64,000 bases of DNA from Daphnia carinata. Lineage: Eukaryota. Position numbers and translations under genes: made by a program. Positions 29,900 to 58,808 of this stretch are shown piece after piece. The notes under the pieces were generated by a model. The model was not told the origin of the DNA and did not search any database. It saw only the letters and a list, made by a program, of their open reading frames with translations. The DNA is taken from NCBI RefSeq assembly GCF_022539665.2, contig NC_081332.1:806001-870000 (forward strand). The letters are read 5' to 3'. Numbering within the stretch: position 1 is the first letter of the stretch; every line of letters begins with the position of its first letter.

Positions 29900-32800
29900 A
29901 TGGCTGATAAAACGGAAGCTTTTGATGGAATTTTGTTGTCCATAGCCACCCAACATGAAGGGGGTGTTCAAGACGTAATACTATTTCTTTGTCGCTTGGT
30001 TTTTGTTTCTGTTCCATGCTTGATTTTTGTATGTACTAAAATGTTTATTTTCAGTTGCTCGACACGATCTTCAGTTTCCTGTGTCGAAAAACAGACTTTT
30101 ATACTGGTGCAGGAATTCAAGCAGCTGAAAAGGTAATAATGAATGACTGACGTTGCCCCACTAGGCCGAACATGTATTTTCAGGGTAACAACTCAAAAGA
30201 GAAACCGAGAGACAGAATTCATGAAAACATGTCGTACAAGTATGTCTGAAGGCAGCAAAACACAGGCAATAAATATTAATAGCATTTATTCTGACATAGC
30301 ATGATTTGGTCTCTTGCTGAATTTTAAATGTTTTCTATTCTTTTTGTCGAGAACTGATGATCACTTTCTTGTTGCTCCAGCTGCTGATGGAGAAGTTTAA
30401 CAAATATAGGGTAAAGGCAGACCAGGAAACAGCCAAAAAACGAGCCGAAGTCGAGGAACGGGAAAGAAAAATCAAGGAACGTAGAGAAAAAGAGCAGAAA
30501 CAATTGGAAGAGCAGGAAAAACGTGAAGCTCTCGAGCCGAAAATCAGAGAATTGACGGATGAAGAAGCCGCTGAGATGATGCAACAACAAAAGCAAAAGG
30601 AATCGTCGACGGTGGTGGCTAAAGCAGCCACAAAGGACGTTGACACCACAAAAAAGGATGAAGAAGAGGAGGATCCACAGGACGCTGGCAAACTCAAACC
30701 CAATGCCGGCAATGGTTGCGATATGCCCAACTACCGATGGACTCAGACCCTCTCCGACATTGAGGTAAAGCATTTAGACTCGGCGTTCGTTCATGTAGAC
30801 TATAAAATTATATAAGTAGTTAATTGTAATAAATTTTGGATGGGACAAAAGTTTACCTTCCATGTAGACGATCATGCCGACCAAGGCCAAAAGGGCCAGA
30901 GTACAAAACGTGAGGGACAGTTGACAAGTGGTGGGTGTAGTTCGGTTTTTCCGAGTAATAGCTCCCGACTCTCCCAATAAGGTGAATCTCGTCGGCGTGC
31001 CGCAGCGATCGTAAATGTAGCTGCTTGAGACGGACATTGTCAGCTCATTGCTAGACGATGACGACGGTGGTGTAGGCGGCAAATTGATGCTATCCAAGCT
31101 ATGTTGTTCCCCAGGCATTTGTACGATAGTGAGAACAGGACGAGGAATGTGAAGAGTTCCCTGGAAAAATTTTCGTTAAGCAAATTCGAAATAGTTAATA
31201 GAAGGCATTTGTGAAGGTTAAGCGCCGCATCCCCACGATGATAGAGCACGACAGAGTTCAAGGTTTTGATCGTCAAGTCCGGGTACAGTAAAATTTACCG
31301 TATGAATAAAAACAAAAAACTGAAAGTGCTAAGAGAACCTTCTCCACTGATCTATTAAAATTTTTTATTTGTGTTTTGGCCCCTCAGGGCGAGTCTACGT
31401 ACTCTACCTCTATTATTTCTCCTATAGTTTCTTTGTATGGTGAGGCTGTTTATAATAGGTAGGCGCCGGTGGTGCGTTTCCTCACCAACTGGTTTTTCCC
31501 CGGGTATTGTATATTGTAAATAATAGCAAGTTTAATAATAATTGTGGAAATTCCGAGTTGAATCATATTGTCTGTATCTTTTCGCCAGCTTAGATTAGAA
31601 TTCCATTGTGGTTTGACTATTGAACTTGATGGCCATTTGTCCCTTTTTGGGAGGACACTTGTAGAAGGTCACCTAGCAAAAAAAAATGCGAATACTCTTA
31701 AGCTGAAAGGGGGCACTTGCCCTTCTATCTATACGTGATCTCTGCGATGCTTCGGCCCATTCGTCCCCAACAACCTCCTACCTTTCCTGGAAACTACCTA
31801 AGAACACTGTTTGCTTCTCCAAAACTAGAAAATAACGGGTCCGTTGAATTATGAGAAGATTTTTTTTAGGGGAAAAAAAAAGAAGGGTTTTCCCGGATAA
31901 CTATGGCCCATCTTGAAAAACGTACTACGGTAACCACACTCGTTTTTTTTTCCTTTTGAAACTGGTTTCCTTTATCACGGGCAGTCAAGGTCAAGGGTGA
32001 GGTCATTTACCTCTTCATTTATCTACCTTTGTATAATGGCACCACGAGCACGGGACTATGACATGTGTTGACAACGGAGAATAGAAGCAGTGGTCTTAAC
32101 CAGTACGTTAACCCCAGGAATCTGTTGCCATTCGGCCTTGACATTCCGCCGTCCTCACATGTCACGTTCGCTTAACGCGTTCCCAGAAGCCATCGACGTC
32201 TTCGAAACAGTAGAATAAGTTTATTCATTCTGACCTGCTCCTGTTGATGATGCAGATATTGGCGATGGACTTGAGCGACGGGCGGGATGAAATTAGCGTT
32301 GGATGAAATCCAGTGGCCGTTGAATGACATTTTCTCGCGTCACTTTGAATATTTCCTGGTTGTTTGTTATTTCCTACTTTGTTGTGTGGGCAAAAAAAAT
32401 AGGCAACCGTAAAGGTGGACTCACTCTGTGTAACTGATCCACGACCTCTCCTTCCAAACGGACCAAACCCACCTCTTCTCTCTGCTCCTCCTCCTCCTCC
32501 TCTGTTACACTCTTGCTTTTCTTTCTCCCCATGACCAGTCCCTCCCAACAGGTAGAACACCACACGATAATCTCTTAAAACTGTCTGTAGTGCCTTAGGG
32601 TGGGTTATTCCATGATTCAGTTCATAATTACAATTTTTTTTTTGGGCTGTACAGGTGCGGATCCCGTTGCCGAGGGCCGGACTCCGTTCGCGCGATCTGA
32701 CGGTCGAGATCCAGAAAAATCACGTCAAGGCCGCCGTCAAGAATCAGCTGCCGGCCATGCTCGACGACCGCCTCTTGCATGACGTCAAGATGGAAGAATC

Positions 32801-33170
32801 AACGTGGCTGCTTGAAGATAAACAGACGGTGCTCATCACGCTCGAGAAGGTGAACAAGATGGAGTGGTGGAGTCGCCTAGTCGTGTCGGATCCGGAGATC
32901 AACACCAAAAAGATCAATCCGGAGCCGTCGAAGCTGTCTGATCTGGACGGGGAGACGCGCGGGCTCGTCGAGAAGATGATGTACGACCAGCGCCAGAAGG
33001 AAATGGGACTGCCGACGTCCGAGGAGCAAAAGAAGCAAGACATGCTCAAAAAGTAAATATTTCATTGAATAAGCAATCAGCTTACATCACGATAAGTGAA
33101 CTTTTCTATTTTTAACAGGTTCATGGAACAACATCCTGAAATGGATTTCAGCAAGTGCAAATTTTCTTGA
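29900..33170 (+). CDS. nudC: Nuclear migration protein NudC (N-terminal NudC motif, coiled coil, CS/p23 domain)
   Basis: Exons 29900-29974, 30055-30132, 30381-30764, 32655-33052, 33119-33170. Hallmarks: [89 protein letters not shown]. Confidence 0.97.
30857..31118 (-). CDS. Nested antisense putative coding exon in NudC intron 3: 87 codons, Ser/Pro-rich N-terminus followed by a type II signal-anchor
   Basis: [18 protein letters not shown]...[32 protein letters not shown] followed by donor GAAG|GTAAAC (phase 1) at 30856. Confidence 0.55.
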
Positions 33171-37443: not shown

Positions 37444-40400
37444 TCAAAGTCCAAAGAAGCCCAATTTACCCTTCGGTTTACTCTCTTCGTGATCACCGGA
37501 GACTGGCTCGTATTGCGTAGGTGGCGGTATATTGTATTCTTGACCATAATTTGACGCGGCAGCCGGATAAGATGAGCTATTTGTTGATTGGGATGTTGGC
37601 TGTCGATTGTCCCTTGCACGTGTGCTATGTACCGGTTGCGACGTACCATTGGCCAACATCTGCTGTATATCATCTAATGTCTCTAGACGTGTCATGTAGC
37701 CAGGTGCCTGTTCCTCCATAACACGACTCCTCATCAAACTCAGGTAATCGGATGGGCTGACTACGTTCGAACGTAAAGCTGTGGATTCAAGTGACTTGAC
37801 GTTCTTAGCCACCTGTTCGAGCAGAGTCAAGACTTTGACTCTAGCTATTTGCAACTCATCCGAGCACACGTCCAGCATTTTTTCAGCGTCCATCTTGCCT
37901 TCGTAATTCGATTGGTATTGGGCTTTCATGTCCAACAAAGTCGTTGTTACCTTCTCTGGAACCATGCGATATTCCATATCTTGCACACTATGGTCATATG
38001 GCGGACATCGACAGGCGGCAATTTCACAACGCCTTTTTGTTTGGTGGAGTGAACTCGTTTTTTTAACTAGCTTTTCGCAGGTGTCGTTGCATCTTTGACA
38101 GTTATAAGCTAAGTATCCCTTGGGACAGCTGAACTTCCTACGGCGCATTACTGTCTGTTCAAAGGTGAAATTCTTGGTGGCTTCCATATTATAGCCACAC
38201 GTTTTCATTTTCCGCTGGAAAATTTCTATGTTTTCGATTTTGATTAGACACACTTCCATTTCTTCTTCAATGTCTTTCAGCGATTGTTCCAGTTGGTGTC
38301 TGCTGTGAATGACTTCCCTAGTGGACGTGAGATTCCTACCGTTCATTCCCTCCAACATATCAAAAAATTTCTTAAAATTGTCGTGACCCATGTCCCAGAA
38401 CAACTGGTCGAAACTGAATTCGTCATCTCCCTGTTTCACATTGGAACAATAGAGAACGGAACTATTGAATTTGCTGTAGGCGATGCCGTCCGATGTCGCA
38501 GGGAAATTGGCAGAAAGACAAGCACCGACGACGGGAGGATCAGCATTATCAGCAAATGTCACCAACAAGCGAAGGTTCGACTTCATGTCTTTTCCAAAGA
38601 TAGAAAGAACCGAGTCGATGATGTAGCGCTGAGTGGCCGTCAATCGACTGTCACCCGAGGCGGCGACAAAACAGGCGGCGTGAATTTCACCGATTGGAAT
38701 TTCTTGTTGAGTCAGAAAGCTGTGGATGGCGGCCGTGATTTCCTTGTCCCGTGCTACTCCTCTTGTGTCTCCATATCCGGGCGTGTCGATGATGGTAATG
38801 GAATATGGAACGGCCATTCCTTCCTGGTGGTGAATTGTGTAGGCCGTCACCGAACTGGTCTGACTGTGCGCCTGATTCCGTGACTCGGATTCGTCTTCGC
38901 GGACGCATTTGAAACGGAACGGATCGTTCCACTGGACACCGAGGATGTAGTTGACCATGCCGTTGATCAGAGTGCTCTTTCCGGATCCAGTGGCGCCCAT
39001 CAAAATGATGATTTTATGATTCTTCGGATTAGGCAACCGAATAGGGTCGCCGGTCCGGCAAATGTCGAACCAATTGACTTTGTCGCTGTTGGATTTTTCC
39101 GTCGCATTTAGTAAGTATACGTTCGGCGATCCCTTTTTGATTAATGTGCTGTACGATCTGCGCTCGTCAGCGTAAATTTCAGCGATTCTTCGATTTTCGT
39201 GAGGCTCTGCATTTCGGTGAGTCGTATAATTTTGACCTGCGCCACAATAGAATTTCTTCACCTCATCGACCCTGTCAGGCACTTGAACTCTCCTTGAATC
39301 ATTGACTGTCATGTTAAGTTCTTTTCTTCTACCGTAGTTAAAATTTTTCTGATGTGGAGCAGCAGCGAATGTTGATGAATTTGTACCGTTCAAGTTAATC
39401 CGCTGAACGTCCGGCGCAGATCTTAGCTTATCCATTGAAACTTTTCGTGGTGGTTGGTAAGAATAGTCTACAGTCGCTATGGCTCCATCGTCCAACGTCG
39501 AAGGGTCAAGTACTATGTGGTGGCTAGAGCTAGGGCTATGTTCAGAAACCAATCTGGCCTCATCTGAGAATTTGCGTAAAGCAGCATAAACGGATTCATA
39601 TCGCTCTTTCTCACAAGAGAAAATCGTCAAAACAGGCAGTATAGCATTCGAAGCTTGTCGACCCGATGCTTTCTCTAAATCATTTAATATAGAGTCTTGT
39701 TTGCCCTCAACTTTTAAGATGAACAGTTTGGCCATGTTGTTTTTCTTTTTCATCATTCGAGCTTCGATTTCTGCAGAGTACAATAGTTCAAAATCGGTGC
39801 CACTCAAAAGCCTGCCAATTTGTTGAACCTCCTTCTGCAGATAGGCAAACCATTCGATTATTTTATTCAGGCAATTTGAAATCAATAGCATCCTGCTCAA
39901 AGCTTCTTCGGGTAGACATGTTTCACAATTCTTATATTCTTCTTCTACCATCTTCCAAAAATGGGTCATCAGATCTTGGAAATAGCAAACATGCTTTTCG
40001 AGTAGCGGGAAACGTTTAAGCGAAGGATCATTAGAAACGTCACAAATGTACTTTAACATCCATTTCTTAGTGACCTGATGCCGTTCTTTTTCGAAAGCGA
40101 CCTTAGCTTTCCTCTCTGACAACAGTCGAGCTTCGATTCTGATGGCCGGTATGTTTCGAAGACGGAATTCAATGGGTTTCCATTTCTGCTGATTCTCCTC
40201 GGTATCAGGCTTTAGCAAGTCTTGCAGGTAGCGATTCAAGAAGTTAAATGAGCCCTCGTACTTTTTACCAGGTTCTAGGCTACTCAGAACTGTAATAGAG
40301 ACTTTCTCTAATTCGGGTGGCAATTCTGCGCTTGGCGCTTCCATAATTTGCTCGTCAAAGTACGTTCTGGCCGCCAAGTATATACTGACTTCGGCCGCCT

Positions 40401-40953
40401 CTTTCGTTTCTTGCTTCAAATGCAAAGCTCTGTGCATAGAGCAAATCACCTCCGCACCGTACACGACCTTGTCAATTACATGCGATGCGCCCACCTCACC
40501 ACTTCTTAGCTGATAGTCGCTGATTTTGGATCGTAGAAAAGTTAAATCCAGGGTTTCCGTTCGTCGTACTAGTCGAAACAATAGAGTGACTTGGGCTTGT
40601 TCTTCATCGCCATCCATCGAGTTTGTATTAAGGTAATCGGCGAACCAAAGTTGTTGATTGGACGCAGACCCTTGGTTGATATTCTGAAGCAAGTGGGAGT
40701 TGATACCCAGCAAATGACTTTTAAAGTTTTCAGGTTGCTGATAGAAAAACTCGAACGTCGGGTTTTCCTCAGTTTTCGAAATCCATTTGTGTTCGTTCGG
40801 CACATCAACTGCAAAACAAAATGGCAATAAACCACATTACTGTAATGTTTAAAGTTTGCGATTACCTGGTATAATGCCGTCGGTAAAGTGGTTGTAGAGA
40901 TCTCCAACCCTCCCATTACGACCCAGAGCTGATATTCGAATAGGGTCAGCCAT
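37444..40953 (-). CDS. Cluster gene A (~1150 aa): diverged stonustoxin-like MACPF-type N-terminal module + septin/AIG1-like GTPase + Cys-rich/coiled-coil tail; no FN3
   Basis: Exon 1 40953-40866 (MADPIRISALGRNGRVGDLYNHFTDGIIP), 57-nt phase-1 intron, exon 2 40808-37444. Motifs GASHVIDKVVYGAEVIC, G1 GATGSGKS, HSQT, G3 DTPG, LLVTFAD, KFNSS, NCQRCNDTC. Confidence 0.88.
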
Positions 40954-41938
40954 TGGTGAAAACAGACTGAGACGTGACAATAGTTAAAGAGGGATTGTAA
41001 TAAATGTTCTATTAACTGCTTACCTGTTAGTTTTCCGAACAGGTTTTGGATTTGTTCCACAGGCAAAGAAAAATCTTCCAACAGTTGAATTTTCTTAATA
41101 TGCAAGGCAGCACCGAATCTGTGTAGAACGCAATTGAGTCAACAGGGAAATGGTTTGCAAAGAATCGAGACAGCCACTACAGTGCCGGCCCATTTATAGA
41201 ACCGCCTAGCTATCGAACTGATTTTTCTTTGCTATGTGTCAGCGCCGCCATTGGCTGTATTTTGAACTAAATCCATGTTTCTTGGTGGGAACGACCGAGT
41301 TACTTACTTTAAAACGTACAAACACATGTTACTCGAATTGGTTTTAGCAATTTTAGACAATAGTACAAATTGGTTTAGTGAACCTACGTAAAATAATTGC
41401 CGTCCAAACGAAATCAGACGGGAAATAATAGAACAAAATGAGTCATTGTGCTACTTTTCTCTTGTAGAACTCTCTTGTTGTTAAAAAAACTGCAGGAATT
41501 GTTAAGATATTAAAGTCTAATATGATAACCCCCGCTTTTCTGGGTAGTTGCATAGAGATCAGCATTATCCCTGTGCTATGCGCTTTTACATTATCATACA
41601 GTTAAAATTTGAGTGCTGAATGAATTGATGATAGATGGCTCTCAGATCGGCTGCTCGGTTATAGAACCATTCAGTTATAGAACCGCGCACAGGCCGGTTC
41701 TATACAGCTACACCGCAGTGAGCTCATTGGGGTGTAGTTTTTCCCCTGTCATTCCCAGCTGACGTTATCAGGTCAAGTGTTTTGTTTAATTCGGTTCCAA
41801 AGGAATAGTTGGTGCCACTTGATTGTATCACTTTGATTTTCTCCACCTAATAACAGCCTGTTCGATTTTGTTATAGGTTGCCGGACCAGCTGTGAACGAA
41901 CGTAAGTGAATCAATAAACTTTAAACAAATCTTTTAGA
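40954..41938. promoter_or_regulatory. Shared divergent promoter/5' UTR region of cluster genes A and B, with repeated TATAGAACC motif
   Basis: TATAGAACC at 41195, 41660 and 41676, inverted at 41696. Small UTR exon candidates (e.g. 41877-41901 flanked by AG and GTAAGT). Confidence 0.45.
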
Positions 41939-44900
41939 ATGCCTACATATCTGGACGGGATCGAAATACTGGCATTAGGCCGCCAGTTCAACATAGGAAC
42001 ACTTTACAATTATGTCGATGATAGCATCATACCTAGTAAGAATGGAATTCATAACGTCTGAAAAATGTTAATGTTCATATGTGTTGGATATGTTCAGGTC
42101 CTCAATTATGGTGTAAACATGATGTGTCCAATTCAGCCGTTGAGGAACCAAAAAAAAATGCTGAAGTTTTTTTAAAGACGATTGTGCAAACCGATGAGGA
42201 AGGCGAGAATCCTGATGAAGGAGAAGACCAAATACCCTTCCTGTCCAATATAGGAATGGACGATCACACGGCCATGAGTTTAATGGCCGGGCTGTTGGGT
42301 CCACCTCTAAAAGGAGCTTGGCAATATGCGGCTGATTGGGTCGAATCGACGAACGAATCATTTAGTCAAGGAGCTCATGTGGCAGTCCATTGCTGCCGTT
42401 CCGAAAAAAACATCTCTATCGATCCTGAGAGTCAATTGGACATTGTCTGCCTGCCAAAAAAGCTAATGGAAACTCCGGCAACTCATGTCGTCATTGGAAT
42501 CACGTACGGCCTAGAGGCCTTTTGCATCTTCTCGAAGGACAATCAAGCCAACACTTACGCACGTATCTTTAAAGAACGGCTAGTGAACGAAGACGAAAAT
42601 TTGGAACACGATCAGGACGAAGAAGGTGACGAAGAGGATGGTGGACATTGCTCTATCCCAAAAGATTTGCAATGCACTCTCTACAGCGATTTAGTGGATT
42701 TTAAAGGTAGTAAAAGTTGGACACTGAAGCCTGTCGCAGAGCAGTACGAAGCCTGCCGGAAGATACTGGAACATGGAACTCAAAAGACCATCCCGATGAA
42801 GGTATGGTTGTATCCACTCAACAAGCTGATGGCTGCCAAGGAACTAGTTGCTCAAATGCCCCAAAATATTAAAGATGTCTCGCGTGAACTGCTATTTCGT
42901 TTCCAAGTCATATTGAGCCATTTGCATGGAATCTGTTTCGAGGCTCAACTGTTGGCTAAAGAATTGGATGGGCTAGAAAGTCAGCAATCCATTCCATCGA
43001 CAGCCAACGAAAGAATCAAGCACTTTAAAGATTTGGTCATGCAATTTTTGCCAACTTTCATCAAACCACTGACATTGTGGACTGTAAAAATTCGTCAGGG
43101 AGAGGTTGGAGAAAAGAAAATAGCCGAAATCATCAATGCGGTAGAGACACAGTCGCCATTCGTTGCTAATAAGGTGAAACACTGGATCAATCTACAGAGG
43201 CAGGAATTGAAAACTCTAAAGAGTCTGGATAAATTGCCTGGTGTGCTTGTAGTATCAAGCAAGGAACGCCTCCAAAACGAAATCAAAAATGGAGGCAATG
43301 GATCGTATGCTGTTGTTCTTCATCTGCCCAGTCCCAGAGAAGAATTAAACTCTTTAGTTAATGAGATACGTCGTTATATCGACGACTTTAACGGAGCTGC
43401 ATCATCTGGCTTGATGAACTTGTCAACGAAAAATAGCGATCAAACAACAAAGTCAACGTCCTCCGTATACCGTCAAATTTACGCGTCAGGCCAAGAATTT
43501 TCCAATTGGATTAAGAATCACAATTCGGATACCAAGAACGTCCGCTACATCATCTTTTACGACGAATGCACAGGACAAACCTCGCCCTTCACAAGACTAT
43601 ATCAGTGGGGTAAGGCAGAGGCTCTTTATACAATCCCAAAGGCTCCTGGGCAAGTGACGGTCACAAAGAATCATCGTGGTGTGATTGGATTGAGTTGGAC
43701 GACTAATGATACGACCGGATTGCGCCATTTTCTGGTTCAATATCGCACAGTGGATGGACAAGAAGATCATTGGCCTTCCGATTGTAAGTCTTCGAACAAT
43801 CGAATCGAAATAGATTCCCTTCAATCAGGTGAGACTTACCTGTTCAGAGTGGCAGTGGACACACTCGGAGGGCGGAGCCCGTTCAGCCCTGTCAGCTGCG
43901 AAGTAACAATAGACCCAGTTTGTCCGCCGCCAACTCAATTGCAAGTTCACGAAGTGACCGATACGAGTATATCTATTTCGTGGAGCCATCAACCTTACTT
44001 GAAAACCGGAGCTGAAGAGGAACTGAGGATTACCTCGTTCACTATTGAATGCCAGATGGGTGAGAGCCATGACGAATCGACGTTCATCCAACGATCTACG
44101 GTGAAGAAGAGCATCGTACTAGAACCGCTTGATCCAGGTGTGACTTACCGCATCAAAGTCAAGGTTGAGTGCAAAAATGCTAGTGGCTCTACTTTCTACA
44201 GCCCGGCGTTAAAGATTTTGCCAATTTGTACATTGCAAGAGGCAGAGCGAACAGCGATCATCGTCCGCCGTACTAGTAAGAAATGTTCGGCTGGCCCTGG
44301 AATTGACGTTTACCAATTGCCGTTGAAAAAACGTCACAATGACAAAATTCAGGGAGTCGGTCATTACGTTTTTGGTGAACCGAGTTGTCTGGCATTGGCA
44401 GGTAAACATAGAAAAAGAACCATCTTGGTCCTTGGTGCCACCGGTGCAGGTAAAAGCACGCTCATCAACGCCATGGCGAACTACGTACTGGGAGTCCAAT
44501 GGGAAGATGATTTCCGCTTCAAGTTGATCAACGAACCAGCCGACAAATCGCAGGTGCATAGTCAGACGGCCTCAGTGACCACCTATGATTTTTACGAGAT
44601 GATAGGCTCTCGTTTGGGTTACTCGTTGACCATCGTCGATACTCCGGGATTCGGAGATACGCGCGGACTTGAAAAAGACAAGAAAATTATGCAGCAATTG
44701 AAAGATTATTTCCAAAGTCGTCACGGGATTCAGCAATTAGAGGCCGTTTGTTTTGTTATCCAATCTTCACTCGCCAGACTGACGCCTACCCAGCAATACA
44801 TCTTTGACCAGATTTTATCCATCTTCGGTGAAAACGTAAAAAATAGCATCCGCATCATGGTGACATTTGCTGATAATGCTTTGCCGCCCGTCCTCGACGC

Positions 44901-45828
44901 TATCAAGGGTGCCGGTATTCCCTCACCCACCGACCCAACTACCGGACGGCCACTTCATCATAAATTTAACAACTCCATTTTCTTTGAGTCTAAGAAAAAC
45001 AATCGTGAAGAAAATGAATTCAACCGGAATTATTTCGAGATGGCCGTTAGAGGTTTTGACAAATTCTTTGACGATTTGAGGAACATGGATGCGATATCGT
45101 TGACGCTAACCCGCGAAGTGCTCGAAGAACGAAAGCGCCTAGAAGCTCTTTTCGAAGGCCTTCAACTTCGTACTCAAATCAAATTGGCAAAAATCGACGA
45201 GTTCGAGCAAATCAAGAAAGTGCTGACAGAGAATCGGCAACAAATGGACATAAACAAGAATTTTGAATTCGAAGTCGAGTTCCTCGTCCCCAAAACGACG
45301 GACATTAGCGGGACGGGCCAGTTTACGACCAACTGTCAAAAATGTCAAGCAACGTGTCATTTTCCTTGCTCGAAAGCCAGTGACAGCGATAAACATCGTT
45401 GTTCCGTCATGGACTCAAATGGATTCTGCATAATCTGCAAGTGCCCGTGGAATGTTCATTTCAATCAAAAGTACAGGCACGAAATGGTGAAGGAGAAAGT
45501 GCAGCGTTCATCGGATGCCATCCGGAAGCAATATCAAGGGGCCCGGACGGCAGCGCTGACTAATCAACAACTCTTTGCCCAACTTCAAGCAGAGATTGAC
45601 CAAAATGAAAAGCTGCTGATTGGATTAGTGCGTGAAACCTCTCCTCGCATACAGAGATTGAACGAGATCGCTCTGAAGCCTCATCCGCTCTCCACATCGG
45701 CTTATATTGACCTGATGATTGAAACCGAGAAACGAGAGCATCGCGATGGATACCAGCAGAGGATCACGACGTTGCAAAGACTTCGCCAAGTAGACGAGAT
45801 GATGACCAAACAGGTAAACGACCATTAA
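41939..45828 (+). CDS. Cluster gene B (~1275 aa): stonustoxin/verrucotoxin-like MACPF-type module + 2 FN3 + septin/AIG1-like GTPase + Cys-rich/coiled-coil tail
   Basis: Exon 1 41939-42035 (MPTYLDGIEILALGRQFNIGTLYNYVDDSIIP), 62-nt phase-1 intron, exon 2 42098-45828. Motifs SLMAGLL..KGAWQY, ATHVVIGITYG, IPMKVWLYPL, IRQG..QSPF..W; two FN3 repeats (PKAPGQ…, CPPPTQL…); G1 GATGAGKS at 44434, DTPG, VTFAD, KFNNS; NCQKCQATCHFPC. Confidence 0.92.
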
Positions 45829-46149
45829 AATCCTAAAACTCAGCCTTCGACATCGCAGTCCATGCAAAATGACCGTCGGGCCTTTCTTGCGTTTCTTCAA
45901 AAGTTTTAGGCGTTAATAATATGACTAAAAGTTACGAAGAACCAGTACGATGCTATCTGATTTTGGTACTGTCTGATTCAATGCTTGTTTAAGTTCAACA
46001 CTAAAAAAATGATTTTTCATTTCCCAAATACATAACCTTGTACGTTTCACTTCCCTCTTCCAATGATATCGAGCTCTCCTTGTTGTATTGTTTATTCAAA
46101 TTTATGCCAGGTTTGGTTATCAACGACGTTCGCAATCCTTTCATTGTCC

Positions 46150-46640
46150 CTTATTTTTACATGTCATTTGACCACCAGTGGCTAGAAGCGAACGATTGAG
46201 AATACATCCTGCTCCAATAAATAATGCCATATATAGAAATCTACGCAATATTTTCACACGTACACATCAGCGAAAAAAGTCTGTGAATCATTGGGTTGCC
46301 TGATTCGCAAGCCCATTTCCAAGTTCTCTCCAGCAGTTCTCTTTCACCATCTTAAGAAGCGCGCTGGAGATGTCACCTTCGACTACCGGCTTCATACCAC
46401 TAACCTATCACGGATGAAAAACCATAATTTTAACTTATGTTCACGGTTTCCCTTCACAGCTAATTTGACTGACCGGGTATCCGGATGCAAGCATAGCAGC
46501 CAGAACGGCGTGTGAATAAGATTCCAGCATCTCTTCTGATGTACAGTCATGTCGATAAATTATGTAGATAGTTTTACTGACAGAATCAGGAATCAATGCA
46601 TAATTTCGGTCAGAATAAACAGCTAACTGATTCTCCAAAG
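46150..46640 (-). pseudogene. Possible C-terminal remnant of a RUS1-family (RUSF1/C16orf58-like) gene
   Basis: YSDRNYALIPDSVSKTIYIIYRHDCTSEEMLESYSHAVLAAML, then exon-like pieces …ANQATQ*FTDFFADV and CILNRSLLATGG. Resemblance is by eye only; in-frame stop; no N-terminal part seen. Confidence 0.3.
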
Positions 46641-47460
46641 TAAGGATACCCAAAAAAAAAAATTCCTACAAAATTACGTTAACGGATGTCGCATTGCCTT
46701 CTCCTTTTAGGTCACCAAATTTAAATACCTCTGTCATAATAAAACCTTTTCCAAAATCTGATGAATTCGACCACCTGCCTGTGGCGCTTTGGTTCCTCTC
46801 TGTAACAAGCAGGTGAAAATTTCGTTTGAGAATTGCTTATATTTATTAGTATAATTATTATTTCTTTATATCATATCAGCTAGCTTAGCTTCCAAGCCTG
46901 GCTGCGTGAGCGCCATCTAGCGTAGCAAACGGAGAGCACACAGAGAAAGCCAATAGGTGGCTGAATTAGTGTACCAGTTTTTTTTTGCCATTTCCCTCTC
47001 GAAAACAGTTCGTCTGCTATCGTAGGCCATCTGGACCAATGGCAGAGCCAAAACGTCACGTGGAGACTGCGTGACACTTCGTTTCTCGGAAGCACCAATT
47101 TCGCACTGATCCTGGTCGAAAATCCCTCCCAAAACATCTCCTAATAAGGTAGGGATAAGGCCTTACGCCAGAACTAACGTTCTTGCTTCAGGATAAATTT
47201 CATCTACTGTTCATAGATATCACAAATAATTGCAAAATAATCGCGATTAAAATTTATAAAATTTTAAAATTTCAATCGCCGAATTCGATTATTTGAAAAT
47301 GATTTGATCGCCTATTAAAATTGTAATCGAAATGGCAATGACGGCAGATGTGGAAAGAACGCAGTTGAAGCCAATACGTTGACAGATACAAACCACTCCT
47401 TCAAACGACCTTTGAAAACAGTTAATTCACTAATATCCCAATACCATTACACAGAGAAAG

Positions 47461-50400
47461 ATGGCGAGCAAGAAAGCGTTCGAGCTTCAGGTCACTAAGA
47501 TGGTCGTAATGGGAGGCCATTACGAAGTAGGAGACTTTTACGACTACCGAAACGACTGCGTGATAACAGGTATTGTGCTAAATTCATTTCGATTGTTACT
47601 TTCCGGAAAGCTTTAAGAATTGAATGATCCGCAAAATAGGAAGGAAATGCTGGGATTCGGATGCAATTGCGGAAGCTACGTCTAGCGATAATCGATTTAC
47701 TTTGAAATTAAAAAGCCCTGGATCCGGCTCTACTAGCAACAAGTGGAAAAACATGGGACTTGAAGAGCATTCACAGGCCAGCATCATGGCCGGTCTGGTT
47801 GAAAATCAACGTGGTGCTACAAAGTACTTGATTGATCAAGATGGTTTTTCAGAAGCTAGTCAAGTCTTAATATGCCGAGCCAAGTCAGGGAAAGTGCAGC
47901 TGGACTATGAATCTCTTATCAGCCAAGACGTTCTGTATCTACAGGATTTCGGACAAGATAAAAATAGGAAAATTAATCCAACCCACATTGTGGTGGGCGT
48001 CACTTACGGAGCTGAAGTCTATTGCGTCCTAACATTGGAGTCGGAGGAAAACGCTCGGAAAGATACGGAAGAGTATCTATCCAAAATAGCAAGTAAAATG
48101 GAGGAGGCGTTGGACGACCATTTCAATCTCAGCGACTTTAAGGACCAGTTTGATAAGAAAGATAAGACTCAGTTGGCTCGTGTAAAATGTCGTCTGTATG
48201 CCGATCTGCCAACTTCTGCTTTCCGCGAATGCGGCGTCTTTGAAGCTTACAAACAATGCTACGAGCTCATCCAGCAACTGCAGAATAGGGACGTCAGAAA
48301 CAGCGAATCGATTCCGATCGCCATCTTTCTTTACCCTCTTAAAACTATCATGGGAAAAGTCGATGGTAAACCCTTCGAATATCACGACGTCGATCCAAAA
48401 CTAGTGGCACGTTGCGGCCTGATTTGGATTGAACTGGACCGAATCTGCGCAAAATCAGCTGCTATTCGCGTTTTGAACAAAAGAGCCGATAAATCTTCAT
48501 TGCTTCAATTCGAAGAGGCGGTAGCTCAATACAAAGATGTCGTGCAAAAGTCTTTGAAACACGGCATCAAGACAGCGCGAGAAACTGGTCAGCAAAACGA
48601 AATTGAAAGGATCATCAACATTGCTGAAAACCACTCGATTTTCAGTCCACGTCGTTTGGAAGAATGGCTCGAATACCAGCAAGCCGAACACGAGATGTAC
48701 GACAAGATCAGCAATATGACCAACATCGTTTGTGTGTCAAGCAACAAACTGGAAATGGAACTGAAAAATTTGATTGACACTAACTATGCGCTGGTACTCA
48801 GCGTTCCATTATTGAACAAGCGGATGAACAGTACACTAGCGGCCATGAAGAACTACGTCGATTCTGAATTTGAGCCCATAAAAGATTCAAATGCCGACGC
48901 AGACTGCGAGGGCAGTGTAGGCAACAACATCCAACGGAAGCAGAAGCACGTATTCGCCAAAGTATGCGAGTTTACCGAACACGTCGAAAAGAATAAACAC
49001 CTAGGGAACACAGTGGAATTTTTTATCGTATTCGGTCAATCAGCCGTAGAATTCCGCTGTCGTTATTCCGTCTACGAAAAGGAACGTTTACTTAGTGGCA
49101 ATTTGAACCAGTTGCCCGGCCCTCCTACTGGCCTGCAGATTCACGTCCCGAAAAGCCGTAATGTCAGGAAAACAAGTGATACGTACCCCATCGATCTTGA
49201 GTGGGTCTATGAAGACCTTGGTTTTCCCTGTTACTTCTTGGTACAATATCGGATGGTTTGGAACAAGGATGAAGATTGGACGCAACGGAGGACGGCCAAA
49301 CCCGGTGAAACCCAGCTGGCAATCGCCTACAAAATTGGATCGGCGATGGAGATCCGCGTGGCGGCTGACACTTGCATCGGTCGAAGTGAATTCAGTCAAG
49401 TAGTCGACACAATAACCATACGGGAACTTCATGAAGACGAAGAGGCGACACCTGAAAACGGACGTTTGCATTCGGAAGCAGATATTAACGCCAGCTCCAA
49501 CGATGATGCGGAGATGTATCGCGTCAGGAAGGCTGAATCTGCAACATTTCAATTAACGAATCAACAGCCAATAGAAAATCAAAATACTGAAGCTATTTTA
49601 CAGTCTACGTCGCGGGAAGGTCGGGAGGCGCTTGACTCTACGAGCATGACAAAGAATAAAGAAACTTTGCGACGTATGGATCACGATAGTAACGAAAAAG
49701 ATCTGAAAAAAGAAGATGGAGACGACGGCGGGAAATCACAAGAGGAAGACAAAACATGTAAGAAGGCGATCGAATACGTCACTGAGATGGTGGTGCTGGA
49801 AGGCGGATTTCAAGTAGGCGACTTGTACGACTATCGCAGCGATCGCATTTTGACAGGTAAGAGCCCTTAATTGTGTAAATTACGATTGACGAGCTGCATT
49901 TTCTATCAATTAAAATCCATTGAAAACAGATGGTCGGAAGTATGTGGAGTCAAGCAAAATAGGATCGGCTGTTGAGGTGGAATACAGTCTGGAATTCGCA
50001 TGCTGCGAATCGAGTTCCATGAGCGATAAAATGGGAAATATGGGCCTTAATGAGCACTTCCAGGCCAGCTTCATGGGCGGCCTCATAGAAAAGTCTCGCG
50101 GTGGCAGTAAATACCTGAATAACTGCTGCCCTTCATCACAAGCAGCGCAAGTCCTGATTTGCCGTGCCAAATCAAAAGGGGTGAGAATGGATTTGCATAA
50201 TCTTGCGATTCTAGACGTTGAGCATCTCTATGAAATCGGGACAAAAAAAAACCCGTCGAAATCCAACTCAAATCCAACACATATTGTGGTAGGCGTCACT
50301 TACGGGGCCGAAGCCTATTGCGTCCTTATGCGCGATCTTGAAGACGCCGAGACAGACGACGATTCTCGTGAAGAGGCTGAACAGTGCTTGTCCAAAATCG

Positions 50401-53400
50401 CAAATCAAATGAGGGAAGCATTGGATGAAAAACAAAATTTAGCCGATTTCAAGCAACAGTTCAATGTGAAAGAGAGAAAACAGTTGGGTAGCATCAAGTG
50501 TAACCTGTATACCGATTTTCAAACTACAATTGTACAGGATTGCAGCGTCTCTGACGCTTATAAGCATTGCCTCAAGTTCATCGAACTAGTCGAGAAGAGT
50601 GGCATTGGAAACAACAAATCCGTTCCGATAGCTGTGTCTCTTTGCCCTCTTCAAGCAATCATGGGGCAAGATGAGGAAGACCAGTTTAAATCTAACGATG
50701 TCGATCAAGACCTCATCAGTCGTTGTGCCTTTATTTGGAACGAATTGGAAAAAATCTGTGCGAAATCCGTTGCCATTCGCACTGTCAACAAAAAAATTGG
50801 TAGCACTGCATTGTGTCAGTTTGAAAAGGCCGTGGGTAAGTACAAATCGTTCATGCAAACGAGTTTGAAAAATGGCATCACGAAAGTGCGAGAAACTGGA
50901 CAGCAAAAGGAAATTGAAAGAGTGGCCCACATCGTCGAAAACCACGCGATTTTCAAGCCTTCGCAATTAGAACGTTGGCTTCTTTTCAAACAGGAAGAGT
51001 GCAATTTGTACGGAAAAATTAGCAAAATGGCAAAGAACGTTCGTATAGCAAGCAAAAACAAGGTGGAGAATGAACTGGAAGAATTCTTTGAAACAAAATA
51101 CACCATGACTCTTAGTCTTCCTGCTATGGACGGAAGGACAAACAAGATCCTTAAAAAAATGAAAAACTACACTGATTCATGCGTGAAACTGTGTCAGACT
51201 GAAGACGATAGTGAAACGAACGACAACGAGGAAGAAGAGAGCAACATGCCATGGACCCATCAAAAACAAAATTATGTTCTCTCCAAAGTTTGTGAGTTTG
51301 ACAAACACGTGGAAAAGAATAAACATCTAGGAAACAAAGTCCGATTCTTCGTGACTTTCTGCGAGACGGACGAAGCCGTTGGATGTCGCTACTCTGTTTA
51401 TGACACTAATAGTCTACTAAAGGATAACATTAGCCAATTGCCCGAACCCCCAACAGGTCTGCGGATTCAAGTAGCGAAAACGAGTAACCCGCAAAAAAGA
51501 AACATCGTTCTACTGTGGGACTATGCAGATCTTGGCTTACCCTGTCGTTTTCTTGTGCAATATCGACCAAGTGATGGTAACAATGAACCTTGGATGGAGA
51601 AGGAAACAACAAAACCCGGCGAAATGCAAATTACTATCCGCCACAAAACGGGATCGGCGATAGAATTCCGCGTTGCGGCCGACACTTGCATCGGCCGAAC
51701 TGAGTTCAGTGGAGTATTCAACCAAGAGTCCGCGTCGGATGCTGACGATGATGAGGAAAACAATTCAGACAGCGTCTCGACGTACTCGGAAGAGGTAAGA
51801 CAACGCTCCGAAATGAGAGAACCCGCCGCTTCGTTGCAAAGCAGTCGGTCATCGACGAGAAATGTTACAACTACGTTAAAACCTCCGACTAATGTGGAGG
51901 TTGAAACGGTCACGCAGAGCACAGCCGAACTGGGGTGGATTGATACTGTAAACAAGAGCGTCTCTTATCGGGTTCGCTATTGGCAATACGGACAGGATGA
52001 AACGCAGGCTGAGGAACTGGAAATCGCCGTCGGTGAAACCAGCTGTCGGCTGGAACGTCTCCAGCCTGAAACAACATACAGCGTCAAGATCGTGGCCGTT
52101 TCAAAGGGCGGACGGGAGATGAGTGAGCCTAGTGAGACAATCAACCTAAAGACCGTCCATAAACACGTCCGTTTCGCTTTAACTATGTGCAAGCGTGGCA
52201 TAAAGGTTGCTGAAAGAAACGGGTTGGATCTCCTCGCTGTTCCACTCAAAAAATCATCTCGATCCAATCGCACCGTGGAACGTTTCGTCTTTGGTAAGGA
52301 AGGTAGCGGTGCTGGAAGTGTACTGCAGAGGACGATTTTGGTGATGGGCGCCACTGGTGCGGGCAAGACGACGCTGATCAACGGAATGATCAACTACATC
52401 TTCGACGTCCAATGGGACGACCCGTTCCGTTTTGAGCTCATTCGCGAGCAACTCGCCGGCAATTCGCAGAGCCACAGTCAGACCAGCGGTATCACGGTCT
52501 ACGACATCAATCACACTGAAGGATTTCGCGTGCCGTACTCGCTGACGATCGTTGACACGCCAGGCTACGGTGATACTAAAGGTCTCGACCGCGACAAGGA
52601 AATCACGGAAATGATTCGCAAGTTTTTCGAAGACAAAGACGGCATCCAAAATGTGGACATTATTGGATTTGTCGCACAAGCTTCGTTGCCTCGCTTGACG
52701 CCCACCCAAACGTACATCTTCGACTCTGTGTTTTCCATTTTTGGTAAAGATGTCGAGGAAAACATAGACTTTTTGTTGACGTTTGCCGACGGCCAGCACC
52801 CACCTATTCTGACCGCTATCGCAGCGGCCGAGCTACCCTACCCAAAGGAACCTGATACCGGCATGCCACGCCATCACAAGTTCAACAATTCCGGTTTCTT
52901 CTGTACAAACCGCGAATCCAGCGGCACGAGCAAAACGGTCGACAAGTTCAACCGCTTCTTCTGGCGTATGGGCATGGAGAATTTCGAGCTTTTCTTCTCC
53001 ACGTTAGCTTCGATGAAATCGAAATCGCTTTCGTTAACTAAACAAGTTCTGGAGGAGAGGAGGCAACTGGAAGCGACGGTGCAGGGGCTTCAACCCCTAA
53101 TCAAACACGGTTTGACTAAAATGGAGGAGATGAGAAAAGTGACGCAAATGATCACAGACTGCCAGGCGCAGATTGACGCCAATCAAAATGTCACGATCGA
53201 GGTGGAGGTCAACGAAGCCGTGCAAGTCCAGTACACCGATGGTTGCCTAACAAACTGCAACAAATGCCACTACACATGTCACATCCCGTGTTATTTGGAC
53301 AATACTGATAACAAGCTCAAATGCTCAGCTATGGATCACTCAATGCCGGAAGCAACTCGATCGTGTACCGTTTGTCCGCAAAAGTGTATCTGGAATTTGC

Positions 53401-53822
53401 ACGAAAATCAACCGTACAAGTGGGAATATGTCAAGCAGAAGAAGACCACTTCATCCGACGCTGTCAAAGCAAAGTACGAAAAGGAAATGAAAAAGAAGTT
53501 GACGGCCACGCAACTAGTGCAAATTCTGGAAAAGGATGTCGAGAAAAACGATGAGATGGTTCTGCAACATGTTGTCACTGTTACGCGATGCATCAAGCGA
53601 CTTGAGGAGATCGCTTTGCGTCCAAATCCGTTCTCGACGCCCCAGTATATCGATTTGATTATCGACTCAGAGCAGAACGAAAAACGTCAAGGCTACAAAG
53701 AGAGGATCGAGAGTTTGAAGAAACTCCGTCAGATGGCCGTCATTACGACCAAGATCAAAAATAAGGAAAATGTAATGAGCAGAGATCGAAAAGACGATTA
53801 TGAAGAGGAGGACGACAATTAA
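47461..53822 (+). CDS. Cluster gene C (~2070 aa): [stonustoxin-like module + FN3] x2 + FN3 + septin/AIG1-like GTPase + Cys-rich/coiled-coil tail
   Basis: Exons 47461-47569, 47640-49856 and 49930-53822 joined by 70- and 73-nt phase-1 GT-AG introns. Both modules carry QAS(I/F)M(A/G)GL.E..RG..KYL, NPTHIVVGVTYGAE.YC and (I/V)PIA..L.PL. G1 GATGAGKT at 52347, DTPG, LTFAD, KFNNS; NCNKCHYTCHIPC. Confidence 0.88.
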
Positions 53823-53919: not shown

Positions 53920-54095
53920 CCCGCTGAAGTCCATCATCTATTCCCCGCTTAAGTTTATCATCTATTCCCCGCGTAAGTCCATCATCTATTCCCCGCGTAA
54001 GTCCATCATCTATTCCCCGCGTAAGTCCATCATCTATTCCCCGCGTAAGTCCATCATCTATTCCCCGCGTAAGTCCATCATCTATTCCCCGCTTA
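53920..54095 (+). repeat. Minisatellite, 24-bp unit CCGCGTAAGTCCATCATCTATTCC, ~7 copies, ~100 bp downstream of the gene C stop
   Basis: Read directly. Confidence 0.95.
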
Positions 54096-57246: not shown

Positions 57247-58808
57247 CTAAAATGCGTTTCGACACTGACCAGTGCAGCGTTAAACACTTGACGTCCCTGG
57301 CAGTTTGTTGAACTGCCCGGCTTAACAACTTGCTGCACTTCCCTTCGGTTCCGGTCGGGTCTGCATGAAAACCATCAGAAATTAATATCGTACCGTGGAC
57401 AATCGTAAAGGTATTAACAATTTTCTTTTACACTATCGGGTTGGTGCCTTTGCCCTGTCCAGTTCCAGTCCGACTAGGATTGAGCAAAGGAATATTGCTG
57501 CTGGGAAATTGAATGGCTCCTAAACTTCCCTGTTGTCGACGTTCGTATCCATTGCCTTTGATTATCTTCTTACTCTTCTTTTTCTTACCGTACTTGACCG
57601 CGTCTTCAAAGTGAAGACTCTGATAAGCCAACCAGATGCGGAAGACGTCGTATTCGGGATGAAACTGATCGTAAACGCTATCGAGTAAATTGTTTTCTTC
57701 GCACGAAGAGAAATAGGGCGAAGTAGGATTGGTGATATCGACGCATTCCAGTTGACGTTTCAAAACGTCATATCCCAACAGCTTATCTTGAGAATCATAA
57801 CTCGAACACGGGCCGCTCGTTCCCAGCTCGTAACAGACTCCGTTCTTGGTGGGTACCCATTGCACCTGTCGCGCATGGCCGTAGATGGCACCGTCTCCGT
57901 AGATTGTCGCGGGCAATTCTGGACATTGAGATGGCGTGCAACTCAAACCCCCCTCCGAATCGATAGTTAAAACATGTCGGTAGGGACACGGGCCTGAAGA
58001 AATCGAGGAATTGCAGTAACGTGATGGCGGAACTAAGTATAGTTGGCTAACCTTGAGTGAAAAGTGGGACACAATCGTCCTGAGGGTACGGGAAAGGATA
58101 ATGTCCAACGGGACAATCGCAAATGGGGTCTCCGTAAGGCGAATAATAGAGACGACGACCGCCTTGGCATTCGATCGGGTCGTAGATATCGTGACAAAGT
58201 CCATCGCGAACGACGAAAACTCTTTCCCTTCCGCAGAGCCGCGGAGTGCATCGTCCCTGATAAGATTTGCATTTTTATGTTTCCTTTTCTTTTGACACAA
58301 ACATTTCCCGTCATACCTTGAACGTGTAGGGGTCCACTGTGACCCACTGCTTGGGGTCATTGCAAGGGCCTCGACCGAGCACGGGGTAGCATTTTCCATC
58401 CTTTGCGAACCGAACGGAATTTGAATCGCAACCATCGTCTGGAATCGTTCCGTTGGCGGGCATCGTTTGCTGGAAGAAAGGCGTAGCGTCGTCCGTTGGC
58501 AGTACGACAATATTCGGATTGAATTCTTCTTTCTTTTCCTTTTTCTTTAACCATTTCTTCATTTTCTTGGTTAACGTCGATAAACTACGCCCATCGTCTT
58601 TCGAACTTCTTCTGGAACTCTTCCTTGTTATTCCTCGTGAAAATAATTTTTCCGTCCATGTTCGTCTGTCATTCGCGTACGGGATGGAAGATCGGATTAA
58701 TCTCGTGCGATTCTCCGGGGCGAGGCTCTGCTGCTGGGCGCTAGATCCGAGAAGAATAGCCAGCAACGATACGAGTAAAACGGCTATGCTTACAATGATG
58801 CCATCCAT
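57247..58808 (-). CDS. Secreted cysteine-rich protein, DUF4789-like
   Basis: Signal peptide MDGIIVSIAVLLVSLLAILLGSSA. Exons 58808-58317, 58256-58052, 57993-~57432 and ~57360-57247. Repeated C(Y/V)...GPC motifs (CYPVLGRGPC, CVPLFTQGPC, CYELGTSGPC) and CDCPVG. The 3' end is uncertain. Confidence 0.72.

What the first reader, a model, noticed from the sequence alone, without database searches (positions are those of the whole stretch)
37444..53822. Cluster of three cytosolic stonustoxin-like MACPF module / FN3 / septin-like GTPase fusion genes: candidate GTPase-coupled pore-forming defence system
Seen: three long paralogous ORFs share a C-terminal P-loop GTPase (GATGxGK[S/T], HSQT, DTPG[Y/F]GDT, TFAD, KFN[N/S]S) and a Cys/His tail. 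Each has a small first exon that the ORF track missed (ALGRQFNIGTLYNY…IIP; ALGRNGRVGDLYNH…IIP; VMGGHYEVGDFYDY…VIT), followed by a phase-1 intron at the same position. None has a signal peptide. Known: stonefish stonustoxin/neoverrucotoxin subunits begin with ALGRPFxLGMLYD…LIPG, contain ASFLGGLVEVGGSAKYL, ATHVVxGILYGA, VPMxVWLxP and IRSG…SPF…W, lack signal peptides, and belong to the MACPF/CDC pore-forming superfamily. These motifs occur here in the same order. Septin/AIG1(GIMAP)-class GTPases oligomerise on membranes and several act in immunity. Inference: the toxin's C-terminal B30.2/PRYSPRY domain is replaced by FN3 repeats plus a GTPase. This suggests an intracellular effector in which FN3 repeats recognise a target and GTP-driven oligomerisation positions or licenses a membrane-attacking module. 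Similar architectures may exist as uncharacterised predicted proteins in other animals, but I know of no functional description.
Basis: partly seen in the sequence, partly recalled or inferred. Interest (0 to 1): 0.92.

Follow-up and report, generated by a model that had tools for sequence, protein, structure and literature searches.

The report
Stonefish-toxin-like GTPase fusions in water flea
Three neighbouring water-flea genes join a stonefish-toxin-like module to an immunity-type GTPase, a design shared with unstudied proteins of sharks, fish, frogs and turtles, but the water-flea copies lack the sequence pattern of pore-lining hairpins, so they likely work as GTP-driven defence scaffolds rather than as pores.

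Summary
The cluster is real. The three genes match Daphnia carinata RefSeq models letter for letter, with phase-1 introns as described. The N-terminal module has the stonustoxin MACPF/FAT/THX fold. The GTPase is GIMAP/Toc34/septin-class, with intact G motifs and a conserved arginine aligned to the GIMAP7/Toc34 finger.

Corrections: gene C has two tandem stonustoxin modules, and gene A has no FN3 and a very degenerate module. The architecture is not local: it occurs in sharks, teleosts, frogs, turtles and a flatworm, and ten paper searches found no functional description.

Main result against the pore idea: the second membrane hairpin (TMH2) keeps a two-strand alternating hydrophobic pattern in 58 of 70 vertebrate modules but 1 of 61 Daphnia-type modules; none of the four window modules beats its own shuffles. 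Best reading: cytosolic, likely immune, dimerising GTPases whose perforin-like module became a non-pore oligomer or partner module. The GTP-coupled pore idea fits the vertebrate relatives better. No expression or binding evidence was obtained.

The parts
40866..40953 (-). Gene A exon 1 (ATG at 40953; ALGRNGRVGDLYNH motif), followed by a 57-nt phase-1 intron 40865-40809
   Evidence: RefSeq model P0330
37444..40808 (-). Gene A exon 2: degenerate stonustoxin module (to about 39440), low-complexity linker without FN3, GTPase (about 39015-38350), helical stalk with partly degenerate Cys/His insert
40954..41938 (.). 985-bp spacer between the head-to-head start codons of genes A and B; possible shared promoter (not tested)
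   Evidence: sequence
41939..42035 (+). Gene B exon 1 (ALGRQFNIGTLYNY motif), followed by a 62-nt phase-1 intron 42036-42097
   Evidence: RefSeq model P0001
42098..43635 (+). Gene B stonustoxin module: MACPF (TMH1 core about 42238-42336, acidic TMH2 about 42535-42666), FAT helical domain, thioredoxin-like domain
43636..44232 (+). Gene B two FN3 domains
44290..45828 (+). Gene B GIMAP/Toc34/septin-class GTPase (about 44407-45084) and helical stalk with beta-hairpin and 8-Cys/2-His insert
47461..47569 (+). Gene C exon 1 (VMGGHYEVGDFYDY motif), followed by a 70-nt phase-1 intron 47570-47639
   Evidence: RefSeq model P0122
47640..49856 (+). Gene C exon 2: first stonustoxin module, one FN3 (about 49187-49423), acidic linker, and the start of the second module (second copy of the first-exon motif); then a 73-nt phase-1 intron 49857-49929
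49930..53822 (+). Gene C exon 3: second stonustoxin module, two FN3 (about 51492-51716 and 51879-52154), GTPase (about 52329-53009), stalk with Cys/His insert

Best explanation
These are three Daphnia members of a widespread, unstudied animal family that fuses a stonustoxin-fold module to a GIMAP/Toc34/septin-class GTPase, and they likely act as cytosolic, GTP-driven defence scaffolds whose perforin-like module is predicted to oligomerise or bind partners without making a beta-barrel pore.

Shown: gene structure, folds, intact G1-G4-type motifs, the conserved arginine, the conserved Cys/His insert, and loss of the alternating pattern in the membrane hairpins.

Inferred, step by step: (1) no signal peptide, so the proteins stay in the cytosol; (2) GTP binding dimerises the G domains and the arginine acts in trans, as in GIMAP7, Toc34 and the algal septin; (3) the long helical stalk and probable zinc-binding insert couple this to a membrane or a partner; (4) the MACPF core, still conserved, stacks edge to edge into arcs or pairs (A with B, C1 with C2 inside one chain), as stonustoxin alpha and beta do, but stops at a prepore-like state; (5) the purpose is defence against intracellular parasites, with paralogues varying as sensors or decoys.
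For: Fold: AlphaFold model of gene B residues 1-547 (pLDDT 81.6) matches 4WVM best (Foldseek E 1e-18; Z 16.1, rmsd 5.0, 405 aligned, next Z 11.1).

GTPase: best structural matches GIMAP7/GIMAP2 and Toc33, GIMAP7 (Z 14.0, rmsd 3.9, 200 aligned; Z 13.3, rmsd 3.0, 184 aligned). RL[TSN] follows G3 in 262 of 269 family proteins with G3 and aligns with the GIMAP7 and Toc34 arginine (weak E 0.2-0.5; same chains pass E<1e-4 with the longer profile). Such fingers drive dimer-dependent hydrolysis (PMC11238149, PMC8201404, passages).

Hairpins: both strands score >=0.6 in TMH1 for 69 of 69 vertebrate vs 24 of 60 Daphnia-type modules, and in TMH2 for 58 of 70 vs 1 of 61; the eight window segments are reached by 14-89% of their own shuffles, four vertebrate control segments by 0-2%. 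Pores need amphipathic hairpins from both TMHs (PMC7593815, passages).

Module retained, not decaying: in 15 distant B-type proteins identity to gene B is 0.77 and 0.70 in core strands 3 and 4, 0.62 in the TMH1 core, 0.37 in TMH2; the module is duplicated to two or three copies per chain in 10 of 13 long hits.

Immune flavour: many tandem paralogues in several Daphnia species; the same GTPase-stalk is fused to CARD, kinase, Ig and SAM domains elsewhere.
Against: No expression, localisation, GTPase, oligomer or membrane data. The hairpin score is my own heuristic with a threshold set between the groups, the sequences are related so the counts are not independent, and 12 of 70 vertebrate TMH2 also fail it. 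Gene B's TMH1 still scores 0.67. The immune role rests on family analogy and copy number only. A/B pairing rests on one head-to-head pair here and on neighbouring locus-tag numbers in other assemblies, without coordinates or orientation. C1 and C2 are each other's closest relatives, so the tandem is an internal duplication, not a fusion of A-like and B-like partners. Stonustoxin itself lacks a signal peptide yet is released (recalled), so cytosolic action is not proven.
Confidence: 0.45

Rival explanations
1. One reading: the Daphnia proteins are GTP-licensed pore formers in which the GTPase positions the MACPF module and it inserts as a normal beta-barrel.
For: MACPF fold and topology intact. 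Relatives with the same architecture keep stonustoxin-like hairpins: most vertebrate modules and 19 of 35 full modules among distant representatives. Gene B TMH1 scores 0.67.
Against: TMH2 passes in 1 of 61 Daphnia-type modules; gene B TMH2 is an acidic, low-confidence loop (residues 204-216 pLDDT<50); C1, C2 and A fail TMH1.
Confidence: 0.17
2. Non-canonical membrane attack: the acidic hairpins and the lineage-specific His motif in TMH1 (INSH, DDH, EEH) make a low-pH or metal switch, or the module damages membranes by helical insertion or arcs.
For: The TMH1 core is conserved in Daphnia-type proteins (0.62) with a His in all three subtypes. Acid-dependent MACPF pores exist (MPEG1; PMC7593815, passages).
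Against: A cytosolic protein rarely meets low pH; protonation would not create the missing alternation of non-polar residues; TMH2 is poorly conserved (0.37).
Confidence: 0.13
3. A non-immune role: the proteins are trafficking or structural GTPases, and the MACPF module is a repurposed scaffold as in astrotactin or BRINP.
For: Non-pore MACPF proteins with developmental roles are known (PMC5483515, passages); septin/Toc/GIMAP GTPases organise membranes; the GTPase-stalk is the most conserved part.
Against: Lineage-specific tandem expansion, truncated paralogues and shuffling with CARD, kinase, Ig, SAM and variable FN3 arrays look more like conflict genes than housekeeping genes.
Confidence: 0.17
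4. The stonustoxin module is a decaying passenger and only the GTPase-stalk matters.
For: Gene A's module has no Pfam stonustoxin hit and sits on a very long branch; many relatives have the GTPase-stalk without the module (99 of 142 representatives had no MACPF hit, many being fragments).
Against: Frames are open over 450-550 codons in all four modules, core strands are conserved, and the module was duplicated and kept in D. carinata, D. magna and D. sinensis.
Confidence: 0.08

Closest known systems
Stonustoxin alpha/beta (PDB 4WVM), SNTX branch of MACPF/CDC
   Same: MACPF, FAT and thioredoxin-like domains in the same order and fold (family profile vs 4WVM_A residues 4-512, E 1.7e-140); no signal peptide.
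   Different: No PRYSPRY; FN3 domains (B, C) and a GTPase-stalk follow instead; TMH1/TMH2 lack the alternating pattern visible in the stonustoxin alignment; gene C has two modules in one chain.
Uncharacterised SNTX-FN3-GTPase proteins of vertebrates and other animals (e.g. Acipenser LOC131724722, Pangshura, Scyliorhinus, Macrostomum)
   Same: Whole architecture, about 1250-1300 aa, 31-35% identity over 88-95% of gene B; same G motifs and Cys/His insert.
   Different: They mostly keep pore-type hairpins; the Daphnia-type modules form their own branch (SH-aLRT 98, quick tree). None has a described function in the papers searched.
GIMAP/AIG1, Toc34 and septin GTPases (paraseptin/septin group)
   Same: G-domain fold, G1, switch-I Thr, DTPG, and an arginine at the finger position.
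   Different: Only 13-21% identity; G4 reads TFAD; Pfam AIG1 and Septin match only part of their models; a long stalk with beta-hairpin and Cys/His insert (DUF8206-like in 13-24% of members of two atlas clusters) follows.
Astrotactin / BRINP (non-pore MACPF proteins)
   Same: MACPF fold kept without known pore formation (PMC5483515, passages); astrotactin also carries FN3 (recalled).
   Different: Those are secreted or membrane proteins of the perforin branch without a GTPase; structural match is weak (Z 6.8).
Guanylate-binding proteins plus gasdermins (functional analogy, recalled)
   Same: A membrane-coating immunity GTPase acting upstream of a cytosolic pore former.
   Different: Separate proteins of different families; no homology tested or claimed; no protease-release site identified here.

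Membership tests
SNTX branch of MACPF/CDC | MACPF core sheet with two TMH clusters | tested here: met
   Gene B model: strands 47-60, 126-139, 162-178, 224-229 with helical inserts; top match 4WVM. A and C by profile only.
SNTX branch of MACPF/CDC | FAT helical and thioredoxin-like domains after the MACPF | tested here: met
   Pfam Stonustoxin_helical in B and C; structural alignment spans model 7-547 to 4WVM 4-508; HHalign of A reaches into THX.
Stonustoxin/neoverrucotoxin proper | C-terminal PRYSPRY (B30.2) domain | tested here: not met
   No such Pfam hit; FN3 and GTPase occupy the C-terminus.
Pore-forming MACPF/CDC | Both TMH regions can form amphipathic beta-hairpins | tested here: not met
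   Heuristic score: window modules B 0.67/0.10, C1 0.28/0.33, C2 0.52/0.31, A 0.31/0.60 (just under threshold), none above shuffles; vertebrate medians 0.84/0.90. Sequence test only.
Pore-forming MACPF/CDC | Oligomerises and lyses membranes | not testable with these tools
   Needs liposome, cell and cryo-EM work.
Stonustoxin/neoverrucotoxin proper | Alpha/beta heterodimer | not tested
GIMAP/Toc34/septin-class GTPases | G1, switch-I Thr, DTPG G3, and matching G-domain fold | tested here: met
GIMAP/Toc34/septin-class GTPases | Arginine finger in the conserved box | tested here: met
   262 of 269 proteins; aligned to the GIMAP7 and Toc34 arginine in weak local alignments; catalytic role untested.
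GIMAP (AIG1) proper | Full AIG1 domain | tested here: inconclusive
   PF04548 passes its cut-off in A and B but covers only positions 1-129 of 212; no hit listed for C.
Septins proper | Full septin G domain with septin unique element | tested here: not met
   PF00735 and solved septins match only the first 75-107 positions.
GIMAP/Toc34/septin-class GTPases | GTP hydrolysis and nucleotide-dependent dimer | not testable with these tools
   Biochemistry needed.

The most novel reading that the evidence does not exclude
An ancient, undescribed animal immune system puts an arginine-finger GTPase and a perforin-like pore module in one cytosolic chain; it is the likely ancestor of stonefish toxin, still pore-competent in sharks, fish, frogs and turtles, and in Daphnia it has been rebuilt into non-lytic paired and tandem sensor or decoy modules (head-to-head A/B, two or three modules per chain).
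Probability: 0.3. Interest if true: 0.85.

Novelty: new variant of a known kind. Interest (0 to 1): 0.6.

Why it matters
The physiological role of stonustoxin-like genes in non-venomous animals is open; a teleost study only notes growing evidence for a role in defence (PMC12107551, section read). The GTPase-fused form gives a testable mechanism: a nucleotide switch in the same chain as a perforin-like module. Daphnia is a leading host-parasite model with knock-out tools, and it offers a natural contrast between likely pore-competent relatives and hairpin-degenerate copies. The genes themselves are already predicted by RefSeq, so the novelty lies in the architecture, its spread and the hairpin loss, not in gene discovery.

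Tried and rejected
No whole genome is held for the window, so copy number and synteny could not be read directly.

RNA evidence: no RNA holder was listed for 41800-51700; this is no evidence either way.

A/B complex prediction: the service was not available, nothing was folded.

Metagenome scan with the A-type alignment: 4 pattern matches, 0 confirmed. With the B-type alignment: 79 loci, only one close (L001, 1272 bp), too short to test A/B orientation.

Literature: ten searches (terms combining stonustoxin, SNTX, verrucotoxin, MACPF, GTPase, GIMAP, AIG1, septin, FN3, Daphnia) listed no paper describing the fusion. Most listed papers were seen as listings only. The stonustoxin structure paper (Ellisdon 2015) is not held and may mention these architectures; the supplement of PMC12107551 could not be read. 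PMC12373286 and PMC10083217 (passages) say nothing on it.

Earlier scan notes: none.

A first motif-based hairpin script parsed only 84 modules and crashed; replaced by the alignment-based, same trend. A profile of the region after G3 alone found no GTPase, nor did the single sequence. The careful GTPase tree did not finish; the quick tree is used, and gene A's position in it is a long-branch, midpoint-rooted drawing, not a result. The stalk and Cys/His insert were not folded alone, so no statement on their fold is made.

Rejected: bacterial or contaminant origin (spliceosomal introns, Daphnia orthologues); true septin; pseudogenes (all frames open).
Full report
What is in the window. Four long frames lie in 37444-53822: 37444-40836 (-), 42055-45828 (+), 47624-49870 (+) and 49914-53822 (+). 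A six-frame scan finds the first-exon motif four times, not three. GT-AG introns of 57, 62, 70 and 73 nt, all phase 1 and at the same place in the module, give three genes of 1150 (A), 1275 (B) and 2072 aa (C). These match RefSeq models of Daphnia carinata at 100% identity (LOC130699582, LOC130699581, LOC130699592), all named 'uncharacterized protein'. RefSeq models are predictions; no RNA run was listed for this stretch, so splicing is not shown by reads here. A and B are head to head, 985 bp apart at the start codons.

Domain anatomy. Gene B: stonustoxin module, two FN3, GTPase, stalk. Gene C: module, FN3, linker, second module, two FN3, GTPase, stalk. Gene A: degenerate module, low-complexity linker, GTPase, stalk, with no FN3 hit. 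Gene B matches stonustoxin alpha by sequence (E 3.2e-12), and a 91-sequence family profile covers 4WVM_A residues 4-512 at E 1.7e-140. The model of B 1-547 (pLDDT 81.6, pTM 0.80) has 4WVM as top hit (E 1e-18, TM 0.55; Z 16.1, rmsd 5.0, 405 residues, next Z 11.1). Gene A has no Pfam stonustoxin hit, but its 19-sequence profile aligns with the vertebrate profile over 402 columns (97%, E 8.5e-11). A and C were not folded.

The GTPase. The model of B's last 512 residues (pLDDT 83.9) shows a G domain, a long helix, a long beta-hairpin carrying a Cys/His knot, and three further helices. Best matches are GIMAP7/GIMAP2 and Toc33, GIMAP7, EngB-like and an algal septin (Z 14.0 to 12.2), at 13-21% identity. 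Eight Cys and two His are kept in 101-103 of 104 rows, which suggests zinc binding (inferred); gene A has lost some. An arginine after G3 is present in 262 of 269 proteins with G3 and aligns with the finger arginine of GIMAP7 and Toc34 (residue roles from PMC11238149 passages, and the R130A title). GIMAP activity is regulated by dimerisation (PMC8201404, passages). G4 reads TFAD in 180 and TFSD in 23 of 260 proteins with G1 (41 unparsed). So dimer-dependent GTP hydrolysis is a sound inference, not a measurement.

Distribution. The gene B search gave 231 hits among 7994 scored candidates; the 120 listed include Daphnia paralogues and full-length proteins of sturgeon, sharks, rays, many teleosts, frogs and turtles. 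A lizard and the flatworm Macrostomum also have it, as do single-frame genes in three unnamed metagenome contigs (L002, L004, L005). The GTPase-stalk alone hits 4840 clusters at 50% identity. Of 142 new representatives 43 have a MACPF hit. I scanned 35 of the 142 against Pfam, chosen mostly for unexplained N-termini; one each carried CARD (an annelid), Ig and SAM, and two a kinase (one a sea anemone). Atlas clusters with the same domain set are commonest in Chordata, with weaker leads in Mollusca and Rotifera. The architecture is therefore a broad animal family, not a peculiarity of this window.

Are these copies pores? MACPF pores need both TMH regions to refold into amphipathic beta-hairpins (PMC7593815, passages). 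In the alignment the vertebrate TMH1 and TMH2 alternate polar and non-polar residues, as stonustoxin alpha does by inspection. I scored the weaker of two alternating five-residue faces in 135 modules from 123 of 134 proteins. TMH1 reached 0.6 in 69 of 69 scored vertebrate modules (72 found, two from unnamed records) and 24 of 60 Daphnia-type modules; TMH2 in 58 of 70 and 1 of 61. The Daphnia-type group includes unnamed records placed there by similarity; the subsets put on trees group with the Daphnia sequences. The eight window segments were reached by 14-89% of 300 shuffles, four vertebrate control segments by 0-2%. Gene B's TMH2 is an acidic loop that the model leaves disordered. Among distant representatives 19 of 35 full modules pass both hairpins, so loss also occurs elsewhere. 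The score is a heuristic, the threshold is mine, and kin are not independent; still the contrast is large and is confined to the parts that would insert.

The module is kept, not dying. Among 15 distant B-type proteins the core strands and TMH1 core stay 62-77% identical to gene B, close to the G domain (73%), while TMH2, FAT and THX fall to 33-38%. A His motif in TMH1 is shared by A, B and C. Two modules per chain occur in 9 and three in 1 of the 13 long hits, in D. carinata, D. magna, D. sinensis and an unnamed record. C1 and C2 are sister groups, and the unnamed record's two modules pair with each other (quick tree), so these are internal duplications. Locus-tag numbers place A-type and B-type genes interleaved in D. 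magna (OUZ56_023145-023162), D. sinensis (GHT06_013810-013819, 004663-004670) and a second D. carinata pair (LOC130685824/25). That hints at an A/B unit, but coordinates and orientation were not seen and the complex was not predicted.

Mechanism. Most likely (0.45) these are cytosolic defence GTPases: GTP dimerises the G domains, the stalk and knot engage a membrane or partner, and the MACPF cores stack into pairs or arcs that do not insert. Rivals are a canonical GTP-licensed pore (0.17), a pH- or metal-switched non-canonical attack (0.13), a non-immune scaffold role like astrotactin (0.17; PMC5483515, passages) and a passenger module (0.08).

Prior knowledge. Ten full-text searches listed no paper that describes the fusion. 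PMC12107551 (passages and one section) reports three horizontally transferred 'stonustoxin' gene groups in teleosts; one has a 3804-bp alignment, about the length of this fusion, but its supplement could not be read. The stonustoxin structure paper was not available and may note such architectures. Automated databases already list the domains together (precomputed Pfam; atlas names). Verdict: a real, widespread and apparently unstudied variant of the stonustoxin branch, with a Daphnia-specific loss of pore hairpins; interest 0.6.

Noticed in passing
window 19150-21772: A 2.5-kb (TTAGG)n arthropod telomere-type array (about 504 copies) preceded by 32-33 bp repeats (18344-19151) ends at a run of 100 N (21673-21772), after which gene-rich sequence resumes. 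This looks like a chromosome end scaffolded onto another contig, so the left third of the window may not be adjacent to the cluster.
   Followed up: partly
window 21851-25339 (+): A long Glu/Val/Ala/Pro-rich gene with 33-39 bp coding repeats (VAEQEKVAEP-like); no Pfam hit in two of its frames.
   Followed up: partly
window 27320-29324 (-): A gene with a RanBP-type zinc finger and a coiled coil; it resembles the immune adaptor TAB2/3 (recalled, not tested), about 8 kb from the cluster.
   Followed up: partly
window 30321-33056 (+): Exons with a CS domain, NudC-like by recall.
   Followed up: partly
window 53920-54092: Seven copies of a 24-bp repeat about 100 bp after gene C's stop codon.
   Followed up: no
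window 57428-62602 (-): A DUF4789 gene and a GDA1/CD39 nucleoside phosphatase gene follow the cluster.
   Followed up: no
window 13579-14447: About five copies of a 180-bp AT-rich tandem repeat.
   Followed up: no
P0121 (D. magna OUZ56_030764): A predicted 2889-aa protein with three tandem stonustoxin modules before one GTPase.
   Followed up: partly
P0332, P0333, P0337, P0340: A-type paralogues in D. magna and D. sinensis annotated without a GTPase; either truncated models or module-only decoys.
   Followed up: no
L002, L004, L005: Unnamed metagenome contigs carry the whole MACPF-FAT-THX-FN3-GTPase-stalk architecture in one uninterrupted frame of 1253-1296 codons, so the first intron is not universal.
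   Followed up: partly
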